Virus record (IMG/VR): IMGVR_UViG_3300046542_000168
Span: 43,408 to 107,407 of that record
DNA length: 64,000 nucleotides
Source of the DNA: a virus
Strand: one strand, 5' to 3'
Positions 22 through 44,539 of the stretch are shown one piece after another. Numbering within the stretch: the first letter of the stretch is position 1; every line of letters starts with the position of its first letter. The notes below the pieces were generated by a model. The model made no database searches and was not told where the DNA came from. It worked only from the letters and a program-made list of their open reading frames with translations. The position numbers and the translations under genes are program-made.

Positions 22-49
22 TTGACAGGAGTTGAAAGTCGTGTAGTAT
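22..49 (+). promoter_or_regulatory. sigma70-type promoter
   Basis: TTGACA(22-27)-N16-TAGTAT(44-49), inside an imperfect inverted repeat (3-39). Confidence 0.7.
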
Positions 50-130
50 GGCGTCTCCAGTTTGCTCAAGGGCAGACTGACGTAAGAACAGAATTTATTT
101 CAGTAAGTCAGTAAGACAGGAAGAACTAAA

Positions 131-745
131 GTGACCCAGATTTCCGTAACTCGTGCTCTCGCCCAGGTTAAGAGCCTGAATGACCGCATTCAACGTGGCA
201 CCGTAGCACAGTTCATCGCAATTGCCGTAGGTGGTAAGGTTTCCGGTAAGTCCTCTGTTCAAGAGGCAGAGCAAACCGTTACTAGCAACCTACAGTCCGT
301 CCAGGGCCTAATTGCCCAGCGGAACACCCTCAAATCAGCCATCGTCAAGAGCAACGCGACCACTACGGTGTCGATCGCCGGTAAAGTCATGACTGTGGCT
401 GAGGCCATCGAGCGTAAGTCCTCGATCATCCTCGAACACAACCTACTCCAGCAGATCCGTGGCCAGCAGAATCAAGCCATTGCTGCTGTAGATCGCCACA
501 ACGTCGATGTACGTCAACGCTGTGACAATCTCCTGGCCCAGGCTTATGGCCGTGACGTGAAGATCAGCGAGGCCGACAGTCAGGCTATCACCGGCCCATA
601 CGAAGAGAAGCACAAAGCTGCTCTGGTAGATGCGAACAAGCTGGACACTGTTATCGAAAAGATGCAGGCCGAGTTGGACGCTTTTACCCTGGAAGTAGAC
701 TTCGCCCTGAGTGAAGTAAACGCTAAGACTCTGATCGAAGCGTAA
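131..745 (+). CDS. conserved coiled-coil phage protein, DIP1984-like
   Basis: 204 aa helical ORF with RBS; motifs TRALAQVK..RI, SNATTTV..G..MTVAEAIERK and DFALSEVNAKTLI resemble DIP1984-type proteins by eye. Confidence 0.6.
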   Translation: MTQISVTRALAQVKSLNDRIQRGTVAQFIAIAVGGKVSGKSSVQEAEQTVTSNLQSVQGLIAQRNTLKSAIVKSNATTTVSIAGKVMTVAEAIERKSSIILEHNLLQQIRGQQNQAIAAVDRHNVDVRQRCDNLLAQAYGRDVKISEADSQAITGPYEEKHKAALVDANKLDTVIEKMQAELDAFTLEVDFALSEVNAKTLIEA

Positions 746-760
746 CACAGTTCAAACAAG

Positions 761-1070
761 TTTTCTCTTGTGACAGCGAGTTGTCTTAACTTAGCTGGGC
801 TTCTAGGGGTGAGCCTATCACCTCTAACAATTACTGGCATGTAATCATAAACGACCAGTCCCGCCATTTCTGGGACATATCCTTCGTAGGGATTTTAAGC
901 AGTGACTAAGTTCATCGCTCAACGTTTAACCAGTAAAGATGCAACGCTCAACGAAGAAACTTTTAAACAGGTAACTTCTAAAGGCCAAAGCTTCTAAAAT
1001 CCCAGAACAAGGTTGAGTAGTGGTTAGCTATCGACTCTGACGACGCCCTGGGCTGCTGTTCACAAGAAAC
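761..1070 (+). ncRNA. putative ~310-nt structured ncRNA with periodic A-rich loop
   Basis: 766-777 pairs with 1055-1067; GGGATTTTA(889-897)/TAAAATCCC(995-1003) closes a 97-nt loop of AA(A/C)-initiated 7-8-nt units; hairpin 804-826. Confidence 0.65.
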
Positions 1071-1077
1071 CCATTAT

Positions 1078-1153
1078 AGAGGATTGGCGAAGTGGGAACG
1101 CTACGGGCTTTGATCCCGTCATTGACTAGGTTCGATCCCTAGATCCTCTTCCA
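1078..1153 (+). tRNA. tRNA-Gln(UUG)
   Basis: cloverleaf, anticodon TTG, TTCGA T-loop, CCA. Confidence 0.9.
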
Positions 1154-1315
1154 CATTCGAAGTATCGTTGAAAACTACGGTTGTCTACGCGCAAACGCCG
1201 GACTTCGAACTCTACATACCTGGGAACTCAAGCGCCTTGGTTTGTACAATCCACTCGACCAACCGGATGGATTCAGACGCATGGGATCGTCTCTAACTTA
1301 TCCCTACCTATTTCT

Positions 1316-1391
1316 ACCCAGGTAGCTCAACTGGCAGAGCAGCGGCCTCCAAAGCCGTTGGTTGTAGGTTCGACTCCTACCCTCGGTGCCA
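1316..1391 (+). tRNA. tRNA-Trp(CCA)
   Basis: cloverleaf, anticodon CCA, CCA end; one C.C acceptor mismatch. Confidence 0.9.
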
Positions 1392-1395
1392 CTTC

Positions 1396-1471
1396 GCAGA
1401 TATAGATTAAACGGATAAATCACGCGGCTTTCAACCGCACGTTCCGAGTTCGATGCTCGGTATCTGCACCA
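1396..1471 (+). tRNA. tRNA-Glu(UUC)
   Basis: cloverleaf, anticodon TTC, CCA. Confidence 0.88.
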
Positions 1472-1493
1472 TTATTCAAGTTAAGGAAGACTC

Positions 1494-1637
1494 ATGGCTC
1501 AGAAGCCTTACGATGCAACTAAAGAACACACCCCGTTCGACCGTACCCGTAAAACAGATGGGAAAGGTCGTCACCCTAATAAGGGGTTGAGTTCGAAGCA
1601 CCCGGTGTCGGGCAAGAAGAACCGATACTTCGAATGA
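1494..1637 (+). CDS. small basic protein (47 aa, MAQKPYDATK...NRYFE)
   Basis: ATG with AAGGAAG RBS, fills an inter-tRNA gap; below the ORF-track cutoff. Confidence 0.55.
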   Translation: MAQKPYDATKEHTPFDRTRKTDGKGRHPNKGLSSKHPVSGKKNRYFE

Positions 1638-1642
1638 TTCCA

Positions 1643-1763
1643 CCAGGGAGGCTATAGGGGTCTTATGACCGCTCCCCGCTGCTGAGGCTACTCAGTTGTC
1701 CCGATGACAGGCAACAGCGTCCTACCCGCTCCCTGGAGCGCTGAGGCACTAGAGAATAGTGCC
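1643..1763 (+). ncRNA. putative multi-stem ncRNA
   Basis: CCAGGGAG(1643-1650)/CTCCCTGG(1729-1736) encloses several perfect hairpins; GGCACTA/TAGTGCC hairpin follows. Confidence 0.5.
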
Positions 1764-1773
1764 GTTTATATTC

Positions 1774-1849
1774 GCATTCTAAGCTAACCCGGTGAAAGCG
1801 ACGGATTGAAAATCCGTAGAGACTGGTTCGACTCCAGTAGATTGCACCA
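1774..1849 (+). tRNA. tRNA-Phe(GAA)
   Basis: cloverleaf, anticodon GAA, CCA. Confidence 0.9.
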
Positions 1850-1850
1850 T

Positions 1851-1980
1851 AACAATGAGAACCAGGGTACTGGTTGAGTAGCAGCCCATGGAGCCGCCAA
1901 AGGCGCTGGGCCCGGTTCATTGTTGTACTGTACGCACTGGCCAGCGTACTTCGCGTTTACGGTAGAGGTCGCAAACCGCT
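1851..1980 (+). ncRNA. putative structured ncRNA
   Basis: AACAATGA/TCATTGTT closing stem, AACCAG/CTGGTT and GCCCA/TGGGC arms, then GTACGC/GCGTAC hairpin. Confidence 0.45.
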
Positions 1981-1991
1981 TTATTTTCCCT

Positions 1992-2068
1992 ACTGGTATA
2001 GTTCAACTGGAAAGAGCATCCGCCTTCTAAGTGGTTAGTTGGGGGTTCGAATCCCTCTACCAGTGCCA
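1992..2068 (+). tRNA. tRNA-Arg(UCU)
   Basis: cloverleaf, anticodon TCT, CCA. Confidence 0.9.
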
Positions 2069-2116
2069 GATATGCAAGAAAGTTGTAGAAAGTTCGAACT
2101 ATTTTCATATTGCCTA

Positions 2117-2145
2117 TTGACAAAATAGAAAAGTGTGAGAATATT
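2117..2145 (+). promoter_or_regulatory. internal sigma70-like promoter of the tRNA array
   Basis: TTGACA-N17-AATATT in an AT-rich gap. Confidence 0.5.
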
Positions 2146-2203
2146 CACGGACTCGAAGTTACCTTCGACTGAATTACCCCTCTTGTATGTAGTTCCCCTC
2201 TTA

Positions 2204-2279
2204 GCCTAATGATTCCTCTGGGAAGGAAGACGCACTGTCGATGCGTTCGCTGCGGTTTCGAATACCGTATTAGGCGCCA
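2204..2279 (+). tRNA. tRNA-Asp(GUC)
   Basis: cloverleaf, anticodon GTC, G73, CCA. Confidence 0.88.
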
Positions 2280-2284
2280 TATTT

Positions 2285-2362
2285 GCCCTTGTAGCTCTTA
2301 ACTGGCAGAGCAGCCGCCTTGTAAGCGGACGGTTGGGAGTTCGAATCTCTCCTGGGGCACCA
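2285..2362 (+). tRNA. tRNA-Thr(UGU)
   Basis: cloverleaf, anticodon TGT, CCA. Confidence 0.9.
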
Positions 2363-2369
2363 TATTCTT

Positions 2370-2445
2370 TCCGGTATAGCTCAGTTGGTAGAGCAGCGGC
2401 CCGATAAGCCGTTTGTCACTAGTTCAAGTCTAGTTACCGGGACCA
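2370..2445 (+). tRNA. tRNA-Ile(GAU)
   Basis: cloverleaf, anticodon GAT (loop CC-GAT-AA, so C33), CCA. Confidence 0.88.
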
Positions 2446-2450
2446 TCTAT

Positions 2451-2524
2451 GGGCTGTAAGAATTACGACAGTTCGCCTGCCTTGCACGCAGGAAGCCAGG
2501 GTTTGACTCCCTGACGGTCCACCA
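2451..2524 (+). tRNA. tRNA-Ala(UGC)
   Basis: cloverleaf, anticodon TGC, G3:U70 pair, CCA. Confidence 0.88.
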
Positions 2525-2592
2525 TTACAAATGCAGAGACTTACGGCTTATGTCGTTACAAGTCAAACCGGGGATATGCACCCCTTTACAAT

Positions 2593-2674
2593 AGCGAGAG
2601 AGTTAAGACTGTCTGGTGATGTCGCCCGGCTCATAACCGGCTGCTTTGTGGTTCGATTCCACCTCTCGCCACCA
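2593..2674 (+). tRNA. tRNA-Met/Ile2(CAU), atypical
   Basis: anticodon CAT, GCGAGAG/CTCTCGC acceptor, unpaired top position (initiator-like), long acceptor-D linker, CCA. Confidence 0.7.
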
Positions 2675-2678
2675 TATT

Positions 2679-2767
2679 TGAAGAGAGAACCTGGGTTCAA
2701 GTCCCTTGTCTCGGAAGGCCCGCCTGTATAACAGGGCTGATAGCTTAGTGGATTAAAGCGCTCTTCA
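2679..2767 (+). ncRNA. circularly permuted tRNA-like element (YrlA-like topology)
   Basis: T-arm (GGG TTCAAGT CCC) precedes D-arm (TAGCTTAGTGGATTAAAGC); ends pair as TGAAGAG/CTCTTCA. Confidence 0.6.
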
Positions 2768-2838
2768 TCTCACACACTGGGTTGCTCCCCATGTGAACAC
2801 TCGCCACAGAGTGTATAAATAAGTGTGGCACGATCAAT

Positions 2839-2915
2839 TGGACATAAGCTAACTAGGCGGAAGCGGGTGGCTGTTAACCACCAGATGCTAGGTTCGAATC
2901 CTAGATGTCCAGCCA
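2839..2915 (+). tRNA. tRNA-Asn(GUU)
   Basis: cloverleaf, anticodon GTT, CCA. Confidence 0.9.
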
Positions 2916-3031
2916 ACTTTGCGACGTGAGGTTTTATGCCCACGATCCTTCCAGGGCTTACCTGGGAGAGATGAGAGTCGCGCATTAAGCTGTCTGCTAG
3001 GCCCGGACGTTAAATGGGCGACAAGATCAAT

Positions 3032-3107
3032 ACCCCGATGGCTGATCGTCTTAGGCAATCGCCTGCAAAGCGATATCAGGCTGGTTAGATTCCAGCTCGG
3101 GGTTCCA
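3032..3107 (+). tRNA. tRNA-Cys(GCA)
   Basis: cloverleaf, anticodon GCA, U73, CCA. Confidence 0.88.
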
Positions 3108-3115
3108 GTTATAAA

Positions 3116-3201
3116 GGTCGTTGTAGAGTCAGATGGCTACTGACAGGGCGCTGTAAACGCCCCGCTTCTGCTAGAGGTTCAATTCCATCCTTCGACCACC
3201 A
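3116..3201 (+). tRNA. tRNA-Tyr(GUA), atypical
   Basis: GGGCG-CT-GTA-AA-CGCCC anticodon arm, long variable arm, CCA; imperfect acceptor and T stems. Confidence 0.75.
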
Positions 3202-3287
3202 ATTTGCCGTATAGGTGCCATACCCGAAAGCATTCGTGCAGTGAGGGCAGGTTATCGTCCCCTTCCCAGGGCGGCAGACGCGAGAAT

Positions 3288-3364
3288 GAGACGTTGGCCG
3301 ACCGGCGCTAGGCAACAGGCTTTTAACCTGTATTAATCTGGTTCGATTCCAGAGCGTTTCACCA
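3288..3364 (+). tRNA. tRNA-Lys(UUU)
   Basis: cloverleaf, anticodon TTT, CCA. Confidence 0.9.
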
Positions 3365-3369
3365 ACAAT

Positions 3370-3436
3370 GGAGGGTCCGCTGGGACGGGACTACTGAAGA
3401 AGTAGAGAGTGTGGTTAGAATCCACTACCCTTCGCC
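3370..3436 (+). ncRNA. non-canonical tRNA-like RNA / pseudo-tRNA
   Basis: GGAGGGT/ACCCTTC acceptor, short D-arm, CTAC-TGAAGAA-GTAG arm, GTGG-TTAGAAT-CCAC T-arm, no encoded CCA. Confidence 0.55.
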
Positions 3437-3442
3437 TTATAT

Positions 3443-3530
3443 AGTAGATTGACCGAGAGGCCGATGGTAGGGGATTGCTAATCCCTACGGTGTAACAGCC
3501 GCACAGGTTCGAATCCTGTATCTACTGCCA
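3443..3530 (+). tRNA. tRNA-Ser(GCU)
   Basis: cloverleaf, long variable arm, anticodon GCT, CCA. Confidence 0.92.
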
Positions 3531-3635
3531 TATTCCAGGCAAACAAAAGCCGCCTTAGTAGGGCGGCTCTTGACAACGAACTCTACCGTTCATTGTAGGT
3601 GGGATGCACTGGCGTACTCCGAGGGGAATCCTATC

Positions 3636-3941
3636 ATGTGGACGAATGGCCGACAAGGCACCGGGTACGCGAAACTAACGCTCCTAGCCACCTCCAGGCT
3701 CGACTGTCACGTTTTACGATATATGCCTGGGGATAGCATTCCATCTCACACAGATAAGCTTGTGGACGGCAGGAAGCACTTCAGGATGAACATCCGGCTA
3801 GCCGGTGAAGACACTTTCAAGTGCTGCAAGGTATTGTTTAGATTCTGGCGGGTTACGATCTTCCGACCGGACCTCTATGAGCACTCAGTACCGGCAGTAA
3901 AGAGAAAACGATACATGCTCAGCATCGGCTGGGTAATATGA
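3636..3941 (+). CDS. small 2OG-Fe(II) oxygenase-like protein
   Basis: HTD...H...R arrangement (IPSHTD, YEHSV, RYMLSIGW); RBS GAGGGG before ATG 3636. Confidence 0.65.
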   Translation: MWTNGRQGTGYAKLTLLATSRLDCHVLRYMPGDSIPSHTDKLVDGRKHFRMNIRLAGEDTFKCCKVLFRFWRVTIFRPDLYEHSVPAVKRKRYMLSIGWVI

Positions 3942-3946
3942 TACAA

Positions 3947-4031
<85 letters not shown>

Positions 4032-4083
4032 TTTACAACGATTGAAGGTTGAGCCTATCGCTCCCTCTCGTTACAACGAATAC

Positions 4084-4171
4084 GGCGTGTAGGCTCCATG
4101 GGGAGATGCGGTCTTGAAAACCGTCCCATTGCAGAGATGTGGTGAGGGTTCGATTCCTTTATGCGCCTCCA
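4084..4171 (+). tRNA. tRNA-Ser(UGA)
   Basis: long variable arm, anticodon TGA, CCA. Confidence 0.85.
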
Positions 4172-4272
4172 ACTTAACGCACGAGACTGGAGGCTGAAAT
4201 GCCCGTGCGATCCGGCCGATACGGCTCCCAGCCTTGAGCGGGTATGAAAGGATAATGCCTGTAACGCACAAA

Positions 4273-4296
4273 CAAAAACACCGCCTTTCGGCGGTG
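4273..4296 (-). terminator. intrinsic terminator of the mvaT-like gene
   Basis: CACCGCC-TTTC-GGCGGTG with A-tract on + (U-tract on -). Confidence 0.7.
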
Positions 4297-4316
4297 CTCA
4301 GGAACGCAAGTGAAGA

Positions 4317-4706
4317 TCAGCCCAGGATAGTTACCCAGCTCTCTACGGACTCATTACCCCACTTCGCTTTCCACTCTTTCAGAGTCTTGTGGTTGCCACC
4401 TTTCGTCTCGATGACTTCGCCGTTGTGCGGGTTTTTGTACTGCTTAACGTGACGCTGACGACGAGTAACGGAAGAGGATTTATCAGAAGCCTGCTTCGAA
4501 GACTTACCGCCGTGGCGACCGTCTGGGTCCATAATACCCAGGATGTCTTTCAACGACTTGCTATATTCGCCCATCAAGCTACGCAGCTTACCTTCGAATT
4601 CCAGTTCTTCTTGCAATTTACCGTCCGACTGGAGGGTAGCCATGCGGGCCTGGAGTTCTTTAATTGCGGCTTCTGTAGCGCGGTATTCAGCAATAACTGA
4701 CGACAT
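4317..4706 (-). CDS. mvaT: MvaT/MvaU-family H-NS-like nucleoid protein
   Basis: N-terminal EYR..E..IKELQ..LEFEGKLR.LM.EY and C-terminal YKNPHNGEVIETKGGNHKTLKEWK.KWG...VESW signature. Confidence 0.93.
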   Translation of the reverse strand: MSSVIAEYRATEAAIKELQARMATLQSDGKLQEELEFEGKLRSLMGEYSKSLKDILGIMDPDGRHGGKSSKQASDKSSSVTRRQRHVKQYKNPHNGEVIETKGGNHKTLKEWKAKWGNESVESWVTILG

Positions 4707-4800
4707 ATTTGCGTTCCCCATGGGATGTCTGTGTGATGTGTCAGAGGATATACACGGCTTATTATTATGTAAAGCCCTTAGTGTAAAAGTTTTTTAAAAT

Positions 4801-4877
4801 CTCGCTGTAGCTCAGATCGGTAGAGCGCCTGCTTTGGGAGCAGGAGGCCGGGGGTTCGATGCCCTCCAGCGTGACCA
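4801..4877 (+). tRNA. tRNA-Pro(UGG)
   Basis: cloverleaf, anticodon TGG, CCA. Confidence 0.92.
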
Positions 4878-4892
4878 TATTAAGATGTAGTC

Positions 4893-4967
4893 GTGGGGCC
4901 GTGCTGCCTGGATGTAGCCATCAGGTTGTGACCCTGTTGTCGGAGTTCGAATCTCCACCTCACCCCA
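4893..4967 (+). tRNA. tRNA-His(GUG), atypical
   Basis: anticodon GTG, C73-CCA, TTCGAAT loop; 5' boundary approximate. Confidence 0.75.
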
Positions 4968-4972
4968 ATTTA

Positions 4973-5049
4973 GCGTGCTTCGTATAGCCAGGTTATTACC
5001 TCCGGCTTCCACCCGGATGACAACAGTTCGAATCTGTTAGCCCGCACCA
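4973..5049 (+). tRNA. tRNA-Gly(UCC)
   Basis: cloverleaf, anticodon TCC, A73, CCA. Confidence 0.87.
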
Positions 5050-5053
5050 ATTC

Positions 5054-5127
5054 GCTCGATTAGCTCAATGGGAGAGCAGAGCCCTTACAAGGCTTTTACG
5101 GTGGTTCGATTCCATCATTGAGCACCA
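5054..5127 (+). tRNA. tRNA-Val(UAC)
   Basis: cloverleaf, anticodon TAC, CCA. Confidence 0.9.
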
Positions 5128-43025: not shown

Positions 43026-43197
43026 TTTTATCGAGTCGGAGCGAGGCTGGGGGCAGAAGATCGATGATACTCGGTACTTCGATACTGCTGAAGAAGCCCG
43101 CCAGTTCGTCAAGGAATACAACGACAAGCACAACCCACCTGGGCCTGTGCCTGACTGGTACTACATGGCGAGCTATCGCGGCGCTGTACCAGCGTAA
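43003..43197 (+). CDS. hypothetical phage protein
   Basis: 64 aa, ESERGWGQKID...PDWY. Confidence 0.7.
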   Translation: MTVRYRVDFIESERGWGQKIDDTRYFDTAEEARQFVKEYNDKHNPPGPVPDWYYMASYRGAVPA

Positions 43198-43234
43198 TCT
43201 CACAAACACAGTAAGTAAGTAAGACAGGAAGACA

Positions 43235-44539
43235 ATGAACTTTATTAAGAAAGCAGGTATCGGTATTGCAGCCGGTGCCTTGGTACTGATCGGCACATTC
43301 AATAGTGTATTCGTATACAACGAAGCCGGTTATCAAACTCACATTCGTACAATCACGGGTGAAGAGAAAGTAGTTACCGAAGTTGGTTATGCCACTAAGT
43401 GGTTCGGTAAGGCCACGCCCTGGAAGCAGGCACAAACCCTCCAGTTCTCCATCGTTAAAGAAGGTGAAACAAGCCGTGAGGTTGATGACGGCGTAGGGAT
43501 CGACAACTACCGCGTTACCTTCCTGGGCAACGTTGATGGTGTTGTGGAAGCTTCCACACGATTCCGTATGCCCCAGGGCGAACAGTTCCTGAAGATTGCT
43601 CGTGAGTATCGCACTCCAGACAACTTCATGCAGACTGCTGTATTGCCAGCAGTGAAAGAGACTCTGCAAACTACAGCGTCCCTGATGACTGCCGATGAAT
43701 ACTTCGCTGGTAGCCGCTCTGAGTTTAGTTCGAACTTCGATGACCAACTTCGAAATGGCCAGTTCGCAGTTAAACGTAAGGAAGTTCAACAAGTAATTGA
43801 AACCAATCGTAGCGAAGGTGACAAGCTTGTTTCCGGTGCTGGTATTGACGGTGAACAGAAACGTACAGCGTTCGTAACTGAGAAAGAAACTGACGACAAG
43901 GGCCGTGAAGTTCGCAAGTCCCAGGTCTTCGTTGGTATGGGTGTAGACGTTGTAGAGGCTCGTGTCCCTAACATCCTGCCGAACCCTCAGTTCCTGGCTC
44001 GCATGGTCAAGGTGCAATCGGCCCAGGCGGATCTGGTAGTCGCTCGTGCGGATCGTCTGAAAGAGGAAGAGGCGAAGCTGCTGGCCATCGCTCGTGGTCA
44101 ACGCAACGTCGAAGAGAAGCGCCAAGAAACCTTGCGTAATCAGGTCGAGCAGACCACCAACGCAGAAACCACCAAGCTCCTGGCGATCACCGCTGCTAAG
44201 CAGGCTGAAGAGTCGGCAGCCATCTCTAAGCGTACCTCCGTCGAGCTGCTGGCAAAGGCTGAGATTGACGCCAAGGCGACCAAGACCACTGCTGATGCTG
44301 AGGCGTATGCGAAAAAGGCTCTGATCCTCGCTGACGGCGCTCTGACGCAGAAACTGGCTACCCTGGAGAACATCAACAGCGTGTGGGCCCAGGCTGCTGC
44401 TAACGCCCCTGTACCGAGCGTGATGATGGGTAATGGTGGTGGTCAAGGTTCTAGCCGTCAGAGTGAGATTGGTGAACTAATGTCGATCATGGCTGCAAAG
44501 GCTGCGAAAGACTTGTCGGTTGATCTTTCCACTAAGTAA
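43235..44539 (+). CDS. SPFH/Band-7 (flotillin-like) membrane protein
   Basis: N-terminal TM, Band-7-like core, long AE-rich coiled coil, VPSVMMG end. Confidence 0.85.
   Translation: MNFIKKAGIGIAAGALVLIGTFNSVFVYNEAGYQTHIRTITGEEKVVTEVGYATKWFGKATPWKQAQTLQFSIVKEGETSREVDDGVGIDNYRVTFLGNVDGVVEASTRFRMPQGEQFLKIAREYRTPDNFMQTAVLPAVKETLQTTASLMTADEYFAGSRSEFSSNFDDQLRNGQFAVKRKEVQQVIETNRSEGDKLVSGAGIDGEQKRTAFVTEKETDDKGREVRKSQVFVGMGVDVVEARVPNILPNPQFLARMVKVQSAQADLVVARADRLKEEEAKLLAIARGQRNVEEKRQETLRNQVEQTTNAETTKLLAITAAKQAEESAAISKRTSVELLAKAEIDAKATKTTADAEAYAKKALILADGALTQKLATLENINSVWAQAAANAPVPSVMMGNGGGQGSSRQSEIGELMSIMAAKAAKDLSVDLSTK

What the first reader, a model, noticed from the sequence alone, without database searches (positions are those of the whole stretch)
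131..1070. Coiled-coil protein gene followed by a closed ~310-nt RNA with a 7-8-nt periodic single-stranded loop: candidate new protein-RNA system
Seen: right after the stop codon (745), the ends of the intergenic region pair (766-777 with 1055-1067). An inner perfect 9-bp stem, GGGATTTTA/TAAAATCCC, closes a 97-nt, poorly pairing loop. The loop parses as AACGTTT AACCAGT AAAGATGC AACGCTC AACGAAG AAACTTTT AAACAGGT AACTTCT AAAGGCC AAAGCTTCT, about 10 units of AA(A/C) plus a variable 4-6 nt. Known: evenly spaced short motifs are how ring or filament proteins bind RNA (TRAP on NAG repeats, Cas7 on crRNA). The protein resembles DIP1984-type helical proteins of unclear function. Inference: the protein oligomerises on its own downstream RNA, one subunit per repeat, so the RNA acts as ruler, scaffold or antitoxin. 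It heads the tRNA transcript from a strong promoter, so neighbouring tRNA processing could release it.
Basis: partly seen in the sequence, partly recalled or inferred. Interest (0 to 1): 0.88.

Follow-up and report, generated by a model that had tools for sequence, protein, structure and literature searches.

The report
Phage heptad-repeat RNA with partner protein
Directly behind a small helical-protein gene this phage encodes a real, doubly knotted ~300-base non-coding RNA that displays twelve evenly spaced 7-base units, and the same gene-plus-RNA pair recurs from phage T5 to Bacillus chromosomes and cyanobacterial tRNA arrays, so it is probably an undescribed protein-RNA particle of unknown job.

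Summary
Window 766-1067 is a conserved structured RNA. The outer stem (P1) is real and covaries. The A-rich tract 914-1000 carries 12 motif units spaced 7-8 nt (p<1/2000).

In 19 relatives, 41 pairs in six helices, including two pseudoknots, are 96% paired, and 30 show compensatory changes.

The same gene-plus-RNA unit follows every homologue I could examine: 58 phage loci, including phage T5 gene T5.085, and 78 bacterial loci. Some bacterial copies stand alone between ordinary cellular genes; others lie inside cyanobacterial tRNA arrays. No other neighbour is conserved.

Nothing in Rfam 15 matches. The protein belongs to no curated family; it is only a remote relative of DIP1984.

DIP1984-like genes are followed by heptad tracts with a different motif (U-N-A-C). 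This argues that each protein reads its own RNA.

Binding, stoichiometry and function are untested. Recurrent linkage to tRNA genes hints at a role in tRNA or translation.

This scan has already noted the same family on other DNA. I found no paper describing it.

The parts
22..49 (+). promoter-like site TTGACA-16-TAGTAT upstream of the protein gene
   Evidence: 10 of 12 matches; consensus match only
131..745 (+). 204-aa helical protein gene (T5.085 family, phrog_1491, mislabelled 'tail fiber')
   Evidence: AF2 model pLDDT 88; 3539 clusters at 50% identity
766..778 (+). P1 5' strand (pairs with 1054-1067)
780..785 (+). P2 5' strand GTTGTC (pairs with 1039-1044)
792..796 (+). P3 5' strand TAGCT (pairs with 1026-1030; the window is shifted by one column in alignment A3)
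   Evidence: and direct reading
797..825 (+). H-type pseudoknot: stem a 797-800/813-816 interleaved with stem b 805-811/819-825
   Evidence: the same knot is seen in T5, AT-rich phages and Lysinibacillus
   Evidence: a T-arm-like hairpin or a whole tRNA sits at this position in relatives
914..1000 (+). heptad tract: 12 units led by invariant A's (consensus about N-U-Y-A-A-A-G), spacing 7-8 nt
1001..1005 (+). pseudoknot Px 5' strand CCCAG (pairs with 1048-1052)
1026..1030 (+). P3 3' strand AGCTA
1039..1044 (+). P2 3' strand GACGAC
1048..1052 (+). Px 3' strand CTGGG, in the internal loop between P2 and P1
1054..1067 (+). P1 3' strand
1078..1153 (+). tRNA-Gln, first of the tRNA cluster, 11 nt after P1; takes the place of the intrinsic terminator seen in relatives

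Best explanation
Window 131-1067 is one two-part module. It consists of a gene for a 204-aa helical protein (the phage T5 T5.085 family) and, co-transcribed just behind it, a 302-nt non-coding RNA.

The RNA has a rigid scaffold: the coaxial stems P1-P2-P3, an H-type pseudoknot, and a second pseudoknot (Px) that ties the 3' end of the central tract to the loop between P2 and P1. This scaffold holds out a roughly 87-nt single-stranded tract of twelve 7-nt units.

The most likely mechanism is that copies of the adjacent protein bind the units one by one, giving a particle of fixed size. The RNA would act as assembly ruler and scaffold.

Shown: the RNA structure, the periodic tract, the strict gene-RNA linkage, the strand, and the recurrent linkage to tRNA genes. 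Inferred: that the protein is the binder, the stoichiometry, and any function.

Because the module sits in tRNA clusters of many phages and in cyanobacterial tRNA arrays, a role in tRNA or translation biology, or in countering host attack on it, is the leading guess.
For: RNA structure:
- 41 pairs in 6 helices are 96.3% paired, against 74% in shuffles and about 40% in slid controls. 30 pairs have compensatory changes. The covariation score is 0.665 against 0.24, reached by 0 of 500 shuffles.
- About 86 of 777 cells are G-U pairs. These would be A-C mismatches on the other strand, so the fold is specific to the + strand.
- Relatives carry a + strand intrinsic terminator right after P1.

Heptad tract:
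- Twelve invariant anchors at fixed spacing.
- A 7.1-7.5-nt periodicity downstream of the gene, stronger than in the coding-region control in all 58 phage loci and all 78 bacterial loci.
- A spacing of 7 nt dominates: 220 of about 400 intervals.
- The tract is not coding. Indels are not multiples of three and the frame closes early in relatives.

Gene-RNA linkage:
- The element follows the gene in all loci tested.
- Px plus P1 are detected in 73 of 78 real loci against 2 of 234 shuffled ones.
- Across 18 divergent groups, the protein itself is the only gene shared by more than 3 groups in the 2.5-kb flanks.
- In the Bacillus pumilus group the module is a stand-alone promoter-gene-RNA-terminator unit between a permease and Ig-domain genes.
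- Between Bacillus and Lysinibacillus clades only the gene plus about 300 nt downstream stay alignable.

Specificity:
- Remote relatives (the DIP1984 family and a 175-aa intermediate group) are followed by tracts of 6-7 heptads with another motif, NNNU(N)AC. The periodicity is significant in 6 of 7 intermediate loci and in 3 of 6 DIP1984 loci at p<=0.05 (a fourth at p=0.07).
- Profile-profile comparison aligns the conserved SNA-T...AEAIE motifs.

Protein: the conserved basic residues are R8, K14, R19, R22, R64, K68, R95 and K96.

Transcription:
- There is no promoter or terminator between the gene and the RNA.
- In phage T5, RNA-library contigs from four studies run unbroken across the gene and the RNA.
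Against: No direct evidence of binding exists. The protein has a net charge near zero and no recognisable RNA-binding domain. Its fold matches only generic helical bundles. Co-inheritance could also arise if the RNA merely depends on the gene's promoter. The RNA-seq data are assembled contigs, which cannot show a discrete RNA species, its level or its strand.
Confidence: 0.58

Rival explanations
1. The RNA is a stand-alone ornate non-coding RNA. It would either sponge a universal host factor through its twelve single-stranded units or work as an RNA-only assembly. The upstream protein would be unrelated cargo that supplies the promoter.
For: The RNA has a complex, strongly covarying fold. It lies next to tRNAs as GOLLD and ROOL RNAs do (PMC12286853). 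The protein has no RNA-binding signature.
Against: The RNA was never seen without the gene, in about 136 loci spanning phages of Proteobacteria and Bacillota and chromosomes of Bacillota and Cyanobacteria. Module boundaries always include both parts. The heptad motif differs between protein subfamilies, which a common host factor would not explain.
Confidence: 0.2
2. The element is a cis-acting 3' UTR. It would be a stabiliser, a processing platform for the downstream tRNAs, or an operator through which the protein feeds back on its own mRNA.
For: It is co-transcribed with the gene and has no promoter of its own. The closing stem starts 10-35 nt after the stop codon. tRNAs often follow directly.
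Against: Two pseudoknots and a precisely spaced 12-unit tract are far more than a 3' stabiliser needs. The element is equally conserved where a terminator follows and no tRNA does. Some members carry a tRNA inside the element, so the RNA would be cut away from the mRNA.
Confidence: 0.1
3. The module is a type III-like toxin-antitoxin or abortive-infection pair. The protein would be toxic and be neutralised by stoichiometric binding to the repeat RNA.
For: It is a two-part module with a patchy distribution across phages, chromosomes and mobile tRNA arrays. A repeat RNA lies next to a protein gene.
Against: The repeats are 7 nt, not about 36 nt, and lie downstream rather than upstream of the gene. 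There is no match to ToxN, AbiE or any PADLOC model. The module is inherited vertically and syntenically in the B. pumilus group and is kept in more than 400 T5-like lytic phages.
Confidence: 0.08
4. The tract is a small protein-coding gene (the 31-aa ORF at 902-997) or a DNA-level element such as iterons of a replication origin.
For: An ORF of 31 codons overlaps the tract. The primase/helicase gene lies about 1 kb downstream in relatives.
Against: The frame is broken by 1-nt indels and early stops in relatives. Compensatory changes with many G-U pairs indicate RNA rather than DNA. A period of 7 bp is out of phase with the DNA helix.
Confidence: 0.03

Closest known systems
DIP1984 family (NCBIfam NF038048; Pfam DUF6847 PF20935; crystal structure 3KDQ, function unknown)
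   Same: Small helical proteins. Profile comparison aligns the SNA-T / TNA-T and AEAIE / ADALAE motifs and the C-terminal D...N-x-T motif. DIP1984-family genes in Bacilli are also followed by a conserved non-coding region with about 7-nt periodic units.
   Different: The window protein scores 14 bits against a 70-bit cut-off. hhalign gives only 12% (true DIP1984) and 54% (intermediate group). It is 55 residues longer. Its RNA has 12 AAAG-type units rather than 6-7 U(N)AC units. The structural match to 3KDQ is not significant.
TRAP (MtrB) on the Bacillus trp leader, and HutP on hut mRNA (my own knowledge)
   Same: These are ring proteins that read evenly spaced short RNA triplets, one per subunit: 11 (G/U)AG repeats for TRAP, and UAG every 7 nt for HutP. 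Here there is a fixed number of about 12 units at 7-nt spacing in a constrained loop.
   Different: The protein fold and family are different (no Pfam match). The motif is A-A-A-G. The tract sits in a knotted stand-alone RNA behind the gene, not in a regulated leader. Binding is not shown.
GOLLD and ROOL RNAs (large ornate phage and prophage RNAs; PMC12286853)
   Same: These are large, strongly covarying non-coding RNAs of unknown function, typical of phages and often next to tRNA genes.
   Different: No Rfam model matches. This RNA is smaller (270-400 nt), has a dedicated adjacent protein gene, and has a long single-stranded repeat tract.
Type III toxin-antitoxin systems (ToxIN)
   Same: A repeat RNA is encoded beside the protein that it is proposed to bind stoichiometrically.
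   Different: The repeat unit is 7 nt rather than about 36 nt. The RNA is downstream, not upstream. The protein is not a ToxN-type endoribonuclease.
RAGATH-27 motif (Rfam RF03100), named by earlier notes of this scan for the 5' part of some members
   Same: It is an orphan candidate RNA motif. Earlier notes say that it covers the first 86 nt of related elements.
   Different: This was not reproduced here. There is no match in this phage genome or at the module in four other phage records. There is also none among the 38 loci scanned at E<=1.

Membership tests
Any Rfam 15 family | covariance-model match at or near the gathering score | tested here: not met
   No match at E<=1 over 746-1077 or over the homologous element in 24 T5.085-family loci.
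RAGATH-27 (RF03100) | match to the 86-position model (gathering score 76.1 bits) | tested here: not met
   There is no match in G000. Weak chance-level hits lie elsewhere in three other phage records, and the model also rings in 5 of 14 control genomes.
tmRNA | tRNA-like domain with acceptor stem and T arm, plus a tag reading frame | tested here: not met
   ARAGORN finds no tmRNA and there is no Rfam tmRNA hit. There is no T arm between P2 and P1, and the tract has no conserved frame.
DIP1984 family (NF038048) | HMM score of at least 70 bits | tested here: not met
   14.2 bits, E = 0.036.
DIP1984 superfamily (remote) | profile-profile homology and a shared fold | tested here: inconclusive
   hhalign gives 54% (E = 1.3e-4) to the intermediate group and 12% (E = 2.3e-3) to true DIP1984. 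3KDQ gives E = 0.07 by profile and Foldseek E = 0.44.
PHROG 1491 ('tail fiber protein') | HMM match | tested here: met
   E = 2.2e-65 over the full length. The label is unsupported. The gene lies in early or tRNA regions and in non-phage chromosomal sites.
Type III toxin-antitoxin (ToxIN-like) | tandem antitoxin repeats of about 34-36 nt upstream of the toxin gene | tested here: not met
   The units are 7 nt and lie downstream of the gene.
Type III toxin-antitoxin (ToxIN-like) | toxin of the ToxN/AbiEii endoribonuclease type | tested here: not met
   No Pfam or PADLOC match.
TRAP / trp leader | MtrB protein and 11 (G/U)AG repeats with 2-3-nt spacers | tested here: not met
   There is no MtrB match. 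The motif is AAAG-type at 7-nt spacing. The resemblance concerns how it may work, not membership.
GOLLD / ROOL | match to the Rfam models | tested here: not met

The most novel reading that the evidence does not exclude
A widespread, undescribed ribonucleoprotein. About a dozen copies (or six dimers) of a DIP1984-superfamily helical protein assemble on a 7-nt ruler that a doubly pseudoknotted scaffold holds as a closed loop. Each protein subfamily reads its own heptad motif. The particle would be an accessory of tRNA gene arrays in phages and bacteria. It would act on tRNA or translation under stress or during infection, for example by shielding, sequestering or processing tRNAs, or by countering tRNA-directed defence.
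Probability: 0.35. Interest if true: 0.92.

Novelty: categorically new. Interest (0 to 1): 0.86.

Why it matters
If the reading holds, a model phage studied for 70 years (T5), many therapeutic-type phages, Bacillus and Lysinibacillus chromosomes and cyanobacterial tRNA arrays all carry an unrecognised protein-RNA particle. The protein family has thousands of members: 3539 clusters at 50% identity. It would add a new class to the short list of large structured bacterial and phage RNAs. Unlike GOLLD, ROOL or raiA, it comes with an obvious partner protein and a testable rule of assembly, one unit per 7 nt. It would correct the 'tail fiber' label that is propagated through hundreds of phage genomes. 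It would also give a first handle on why accessory genes ride with tRNA arrays.

Tried and rejected
- **Rfam.** cmscan at E<=1 on the window and 38 loci found nothing at the element. The RAGATH-27 lead from earlier notes was not reproduced.
- **Protein families.** Pfam, NCBIfam, PADLOC and PDB sequence searches gave only sub-threshold hits. The ESM Atlas returned only unnamed clusters.
- **Fold searches.** Only generic helical bundles came up: syntaxins, ABC-exporter helices and pore-toxin bundles. Z was at most 8.9 and Foldseek E at least 0.08.
- **Homo-oligomer prediction.** Three copies gave no verdict, 0.38 against a mark of 0.42.
- **RNA-seq.** Only assembled contigs were available. They cover the T5 gene and RNA. 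Two of them end at the 3' end of the element (L073 3487 and 3505), which is at most a weak hint of a transcript end. They cannot show a discrete RNA.
- **Closed or unused tools.** I did not try a covariance model of the full 310-nt RNA, because calibration would exceed the time limit.
- **Ideas rejected.**
  - The 31-aa ORF at 902-997: its frame is not conserved.
  - A promoter inside the P1/P2 5' strands (TTGTTC-17-TAGAAT in relatives): covariation requires those bases in the RNA, and none was found in the window.
  - tmRNA or RNase P RNA: no model match.
  - The PAK_P3 sRNA1 and sRNA2 (PMC4933390): these are roughly 100-nt RNAs and there is no evident link.
- **Literature.** Searches for T5.085, DIP1984, heptanucleotide repeats, T5 stable RNAs and structured phage RNAs found no description. 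The Anabaena tRNA-array papers mention unnamed hypothetical genes embedded in the arrays but not this module.

Full report
**What the window is.** The window is the right-hand 64 kb of a complete 107,407-bp phage genome with direct terminal repeats, held as an IMG/VR record.

- Its nearest named relatives are 93-101-kb Pseudomonas phages: Bitten, ventosus, UAVern, vB_PF_Y1-MI, phiK7A1 and the phiPsa374 group. The 204-aa protein encoded at 131-745 is 50-59% identical to theirs.
- A promoter-like site (TTGACA-16-TAGTAT) lies at 22-49.
- The first of at least 18 tRNA genes starts at 1078.
- No promoter-like or terminator-like site lies between the gene and the tRNAs.

- The spacer ends pair: 766-778 with 1054-1067, 13 pairs with one bulged T.
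- A perfect 9-bp stem (889-897 with 995-1003) encloses 97 nt.
- That stretch parses into A-led units. The tract 914-1000 has an A-periodicity peak at 7.5 nt. Its power is 3.63 against 0.65 +/- 0.39 in 2000 dinucleotide-preserving shuffles, and none reached it.
- Thermodynamics alone is unimpressive: z = -2.4 on the + strand and -1.4 on the - strand. The case therefore rests on comparison with relatives.

**The RNA is real and more elaborate than described.** In five annotated relatives the gene is followed by an unannotated gap of 380-456 nt. This gap aligns with the window. It ends in a + strand intrinsic terminator where the window has tRNA-Gln.

With 80 further loci from IMG/VR, nhmmer finds the element directly 3' of the gene in every locus with at least 47% protein identity. 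It also finds the central tract in T5-like phages.

On an alignment of 19 distinct sequences (A3), RNAalifold recovers P1, P2, P3 and a hairpin. By inspection that hairpin is one stem of an H-type pseudoknot. A second pseudoknot, Px, pairs the five bases just after the tract with five bases in the loop between P2 and P1. In the window these are CCCAG at 1001-1005 and CTGGG at 1048-1052.

Counting all 41 pairs gives:

| Measure | Observed | Controls |
|---|---|---|
| Cells paired | 96.3% | 74% in shuffles; 36-48% when partners are slid |
| Pairs with compensatory changes | 30 of 41 | - |
| Covariation score | 0.665 | 0.24 in shuffles (0 of 500 reach it) |

About 86 of the 777 cells are G-U pairs, so the fold belongs to the + strand RNA.

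It is 37.7% paired, equal to both controls. Its CCC is part of Px. It is therefore a window-specific alternative pairing at best.

P3 in the window is 792-796 with 1026-1030, one column off in the alignment.

**The heptad tract.**

- In A3 the tract has twelve anchor columns with invariant A. Spacing is conserved at 7,7,7,7/8,8,6,8,8,7,7,11 nt in all 19 sequences. Unit consensus is roughly N-U-Y-A-A-A-G.
- One-base indels and early stops in relatives rule out the 31-codon ORF at 902-997.
- In all 58 phage loci with enough downstream sequence, a 7.1-7.5-nt A-periodicity lies 130-260 nt after the gene. Median power is 3.1 against 1.4 in the coding control, and it is higher in 58 of 58.
- A chain parser finds 7-nt spacing in 220 of about 400 intervals and typically 10-14 units.
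- Many members have a short hairpin in the middle of the tract. The window does not have a convincing one.
- The distance from the start of the tract to Px is about 87-100 nt across phyla. This fits a fixed geometry.

**Family-wide architecture.** Distant members keep the same order of parts, whether AT-rich or GC-rich and at 31-46% protein identity. That order is a P1 of 8-21 bp starting 10-70 nt after the stop codon, then a pseudoknot, variable hairpins, the tract, and finally A-A-A-U-C-C-N-G-G pairing about 48 nt downstream just before P1.

- Phage T5 itself has the element in the unannotated gap 43142-43504 between T5.085 and the next promoter. The T5 record annotates other stable RNAs but not this one.
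- In L043, L062 and L134 a complete tRNA sits inside the element, between the knot and the tract. Four relatives have a T-arm-like hairpin at that position. The RNA may therefore work in two pieces in some hosts.

**The gene and the RNA travel together.**

- Across 18 divergent groups, the protein itself is the only same-strand gene within 2.5 kb that more than three groups share.
- A scan of one genome per prokaryotic species gave 80 loci in Brevibacillus, the Bacillus pumilus and B. licheniformis groups, Lysinibacillus, Solibacillus, Paenibacillus, Lachnospiraceae, filamentous cyanobacteria and others.
- All 78 with enough sequence have the periodic tract. 73 have Px at 40-55 nt plus a P1 of at least 8 bp, against 2 of 234 shuffled controls.
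- In a separate alignment of 24 Bacillales elements, Px is perfectly paired in 23 with seven different pair combinations.
- In Bacillus altitudinis the module is a self-contained promoter-gene-RNA-terminator unit between an amino-acid permease and Ig-domain surface proteins. In Lysinibacillus it lies beside an MFS transporter. Neither neighbourhood is phage-like.
- The locus is syntenic over 3.6 kb within the B. pumilus group. Between more distant clades only the gene plus about 300 nt downstream remain alignable.
- The phage genome of the window has exactly one copy of each part.

**Link to tRNA genes.**

- Same-strand tRNAs lie within 2.5 kb in 29 of 48 phage loci, often starting within 10-100 nt of P1 as in the window.
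- In Calothrix and Capilliphycus the module is embedded in giant tRNA arrays.
- Published work on the Anabaena array shows that such arrays are induced by translational stress and carry unnamed hypothetical genes (PMC8421152, PMC10272220).
- A PARG-like gene sits next to the Calothrix module. TIGR02452 is the NCBI name for this PARG-like family (my own knowledge), and an Anabaena gene of that family (alr1372) belongs to the stress regulon.
- This is context, not proof of function.

**The protein.**

- It matches PHROG 1491, labelled 'tail fiber', at E = 2e-65. Nothing supports that label.
- It matches no Pfam, NCBIfam or PADLOC family above threshold.
- The family is large: 3539 clusters at 50% identity, nearly all 200-215 aa.
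- The AlphaFold model is confident (pLDDT 88). It consists of long helices with four short strands. Structure searches return only generic helical bundles.
- Conserved basic residues cluster on helices 1 and 2 and at the start of helix 3. Net charge is about zero.

**The DIP1984 question.** It turned out to be informative all the same.

- Searching 151 genomes of the class Bacilli for NF038048 gave true DIP1984 genes. It also gave a 175-aa intermediate group.
- Profile comparison aligns the family's signature motifs. Probability is 54% for the intermediate group and 12% for true DIP1984.
- Both groups are followed by conserved non-coding regions with 6-7 units of about 7 nt, but with a different motif, NNNU(N)AC. 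The periodicity is significant at p<=0.05 in 6 of 7 intermediate loci and in 3 of 6 DIP1984 loci, with a fourth at p=0.07.
- These regions have no Rfam match either.
- A heptad motif that changes with the protein subfamily is what direct recognition predicts. It is the best indirect evidence I have for the particle model.

**Expression.** Only phage T5 has public RNA libraries.

- Contigs from four studies run unbroken through T5.085 and the RNA.
- Two of them stop at the 3' end of the element. That is a weak hint of a transcript end and nothing more.

The module is a real, widespread and, as far as I could find, undescribed gene-RNA pair. The protein most likely assembles on the heptad ruler (confidence about 0.6). 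What the particle does is unknown.

Earlier notes of this scan report the same family on other DNA. I reached the T5, nested-tRNA and cyanobacterial findings before reading those notes. Their RAGATH-27 lead did not hold for this window.

Noticed in passing
window 1078-5127: There is a cluster of at least 18 tRNA genes with 100-400-nt spacers. It also contains a second promoter-like site (2117-2145), a 47-codon ORF (1494-1637) and a weak tRNA-like hit (2596-2669) that may be a degenerate tRNA.
   Followed up: no
L174-L179 (downstream of DIP1984-family genes in Bacilli): A conserved non-coding region of about 200 nt follows these genes. It has a T-arm-like hairpin, U(N)AC units of about 7 nt and a G-rich tail GGTGAGGGYGGG...GGGG. 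It has no Rfam match and looks like a second, sister protein-RNA module.
   Followed up: partly
L043 3238-3314; L062 3213-3287; L134 2230-2300: Complete tRNA genes are nested inside the heptad RNA, between the pseudoknot and the tract. tRNA processing would split the RNA into two base-paired pieces.
   Followed up: partly
L041 2151-2238: A skipping-rope RNA (RF02924, 63 bits) lies directly upstream of the protein gene in a phage contig.
   Followed up: no
L056 1265-1337: A phage tRNA has anticodon UUA, which would make it an ochre suppressor. It lies in the tRNA cluster upstream of the module.
   Followed up: no
window 100-121: A tandem 8-nt repeat (CAGTAAGT CAGTAAGA) lies just upstream of the GTG start of the protein gene. 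Another first-reader note reports similar repeats before other genes of this phage.
   Followed up: no
P0256: A 474-aa protein matches the family profile in three stretches, the best at residues 271-472. It is a possible fused or duplicated form.
   Followed up: no
L163 2412-3257: In Calothrix the module is followed by a microbial-type PARG gene. TIGR02452 is the NCBI name for this family (my own knowledge), and the Anabaena gene alr1372, annotated as a TIGR02452 family protein, belongs to the TrcR translational-stress regulon (PMC10272220).
   Followed up: no
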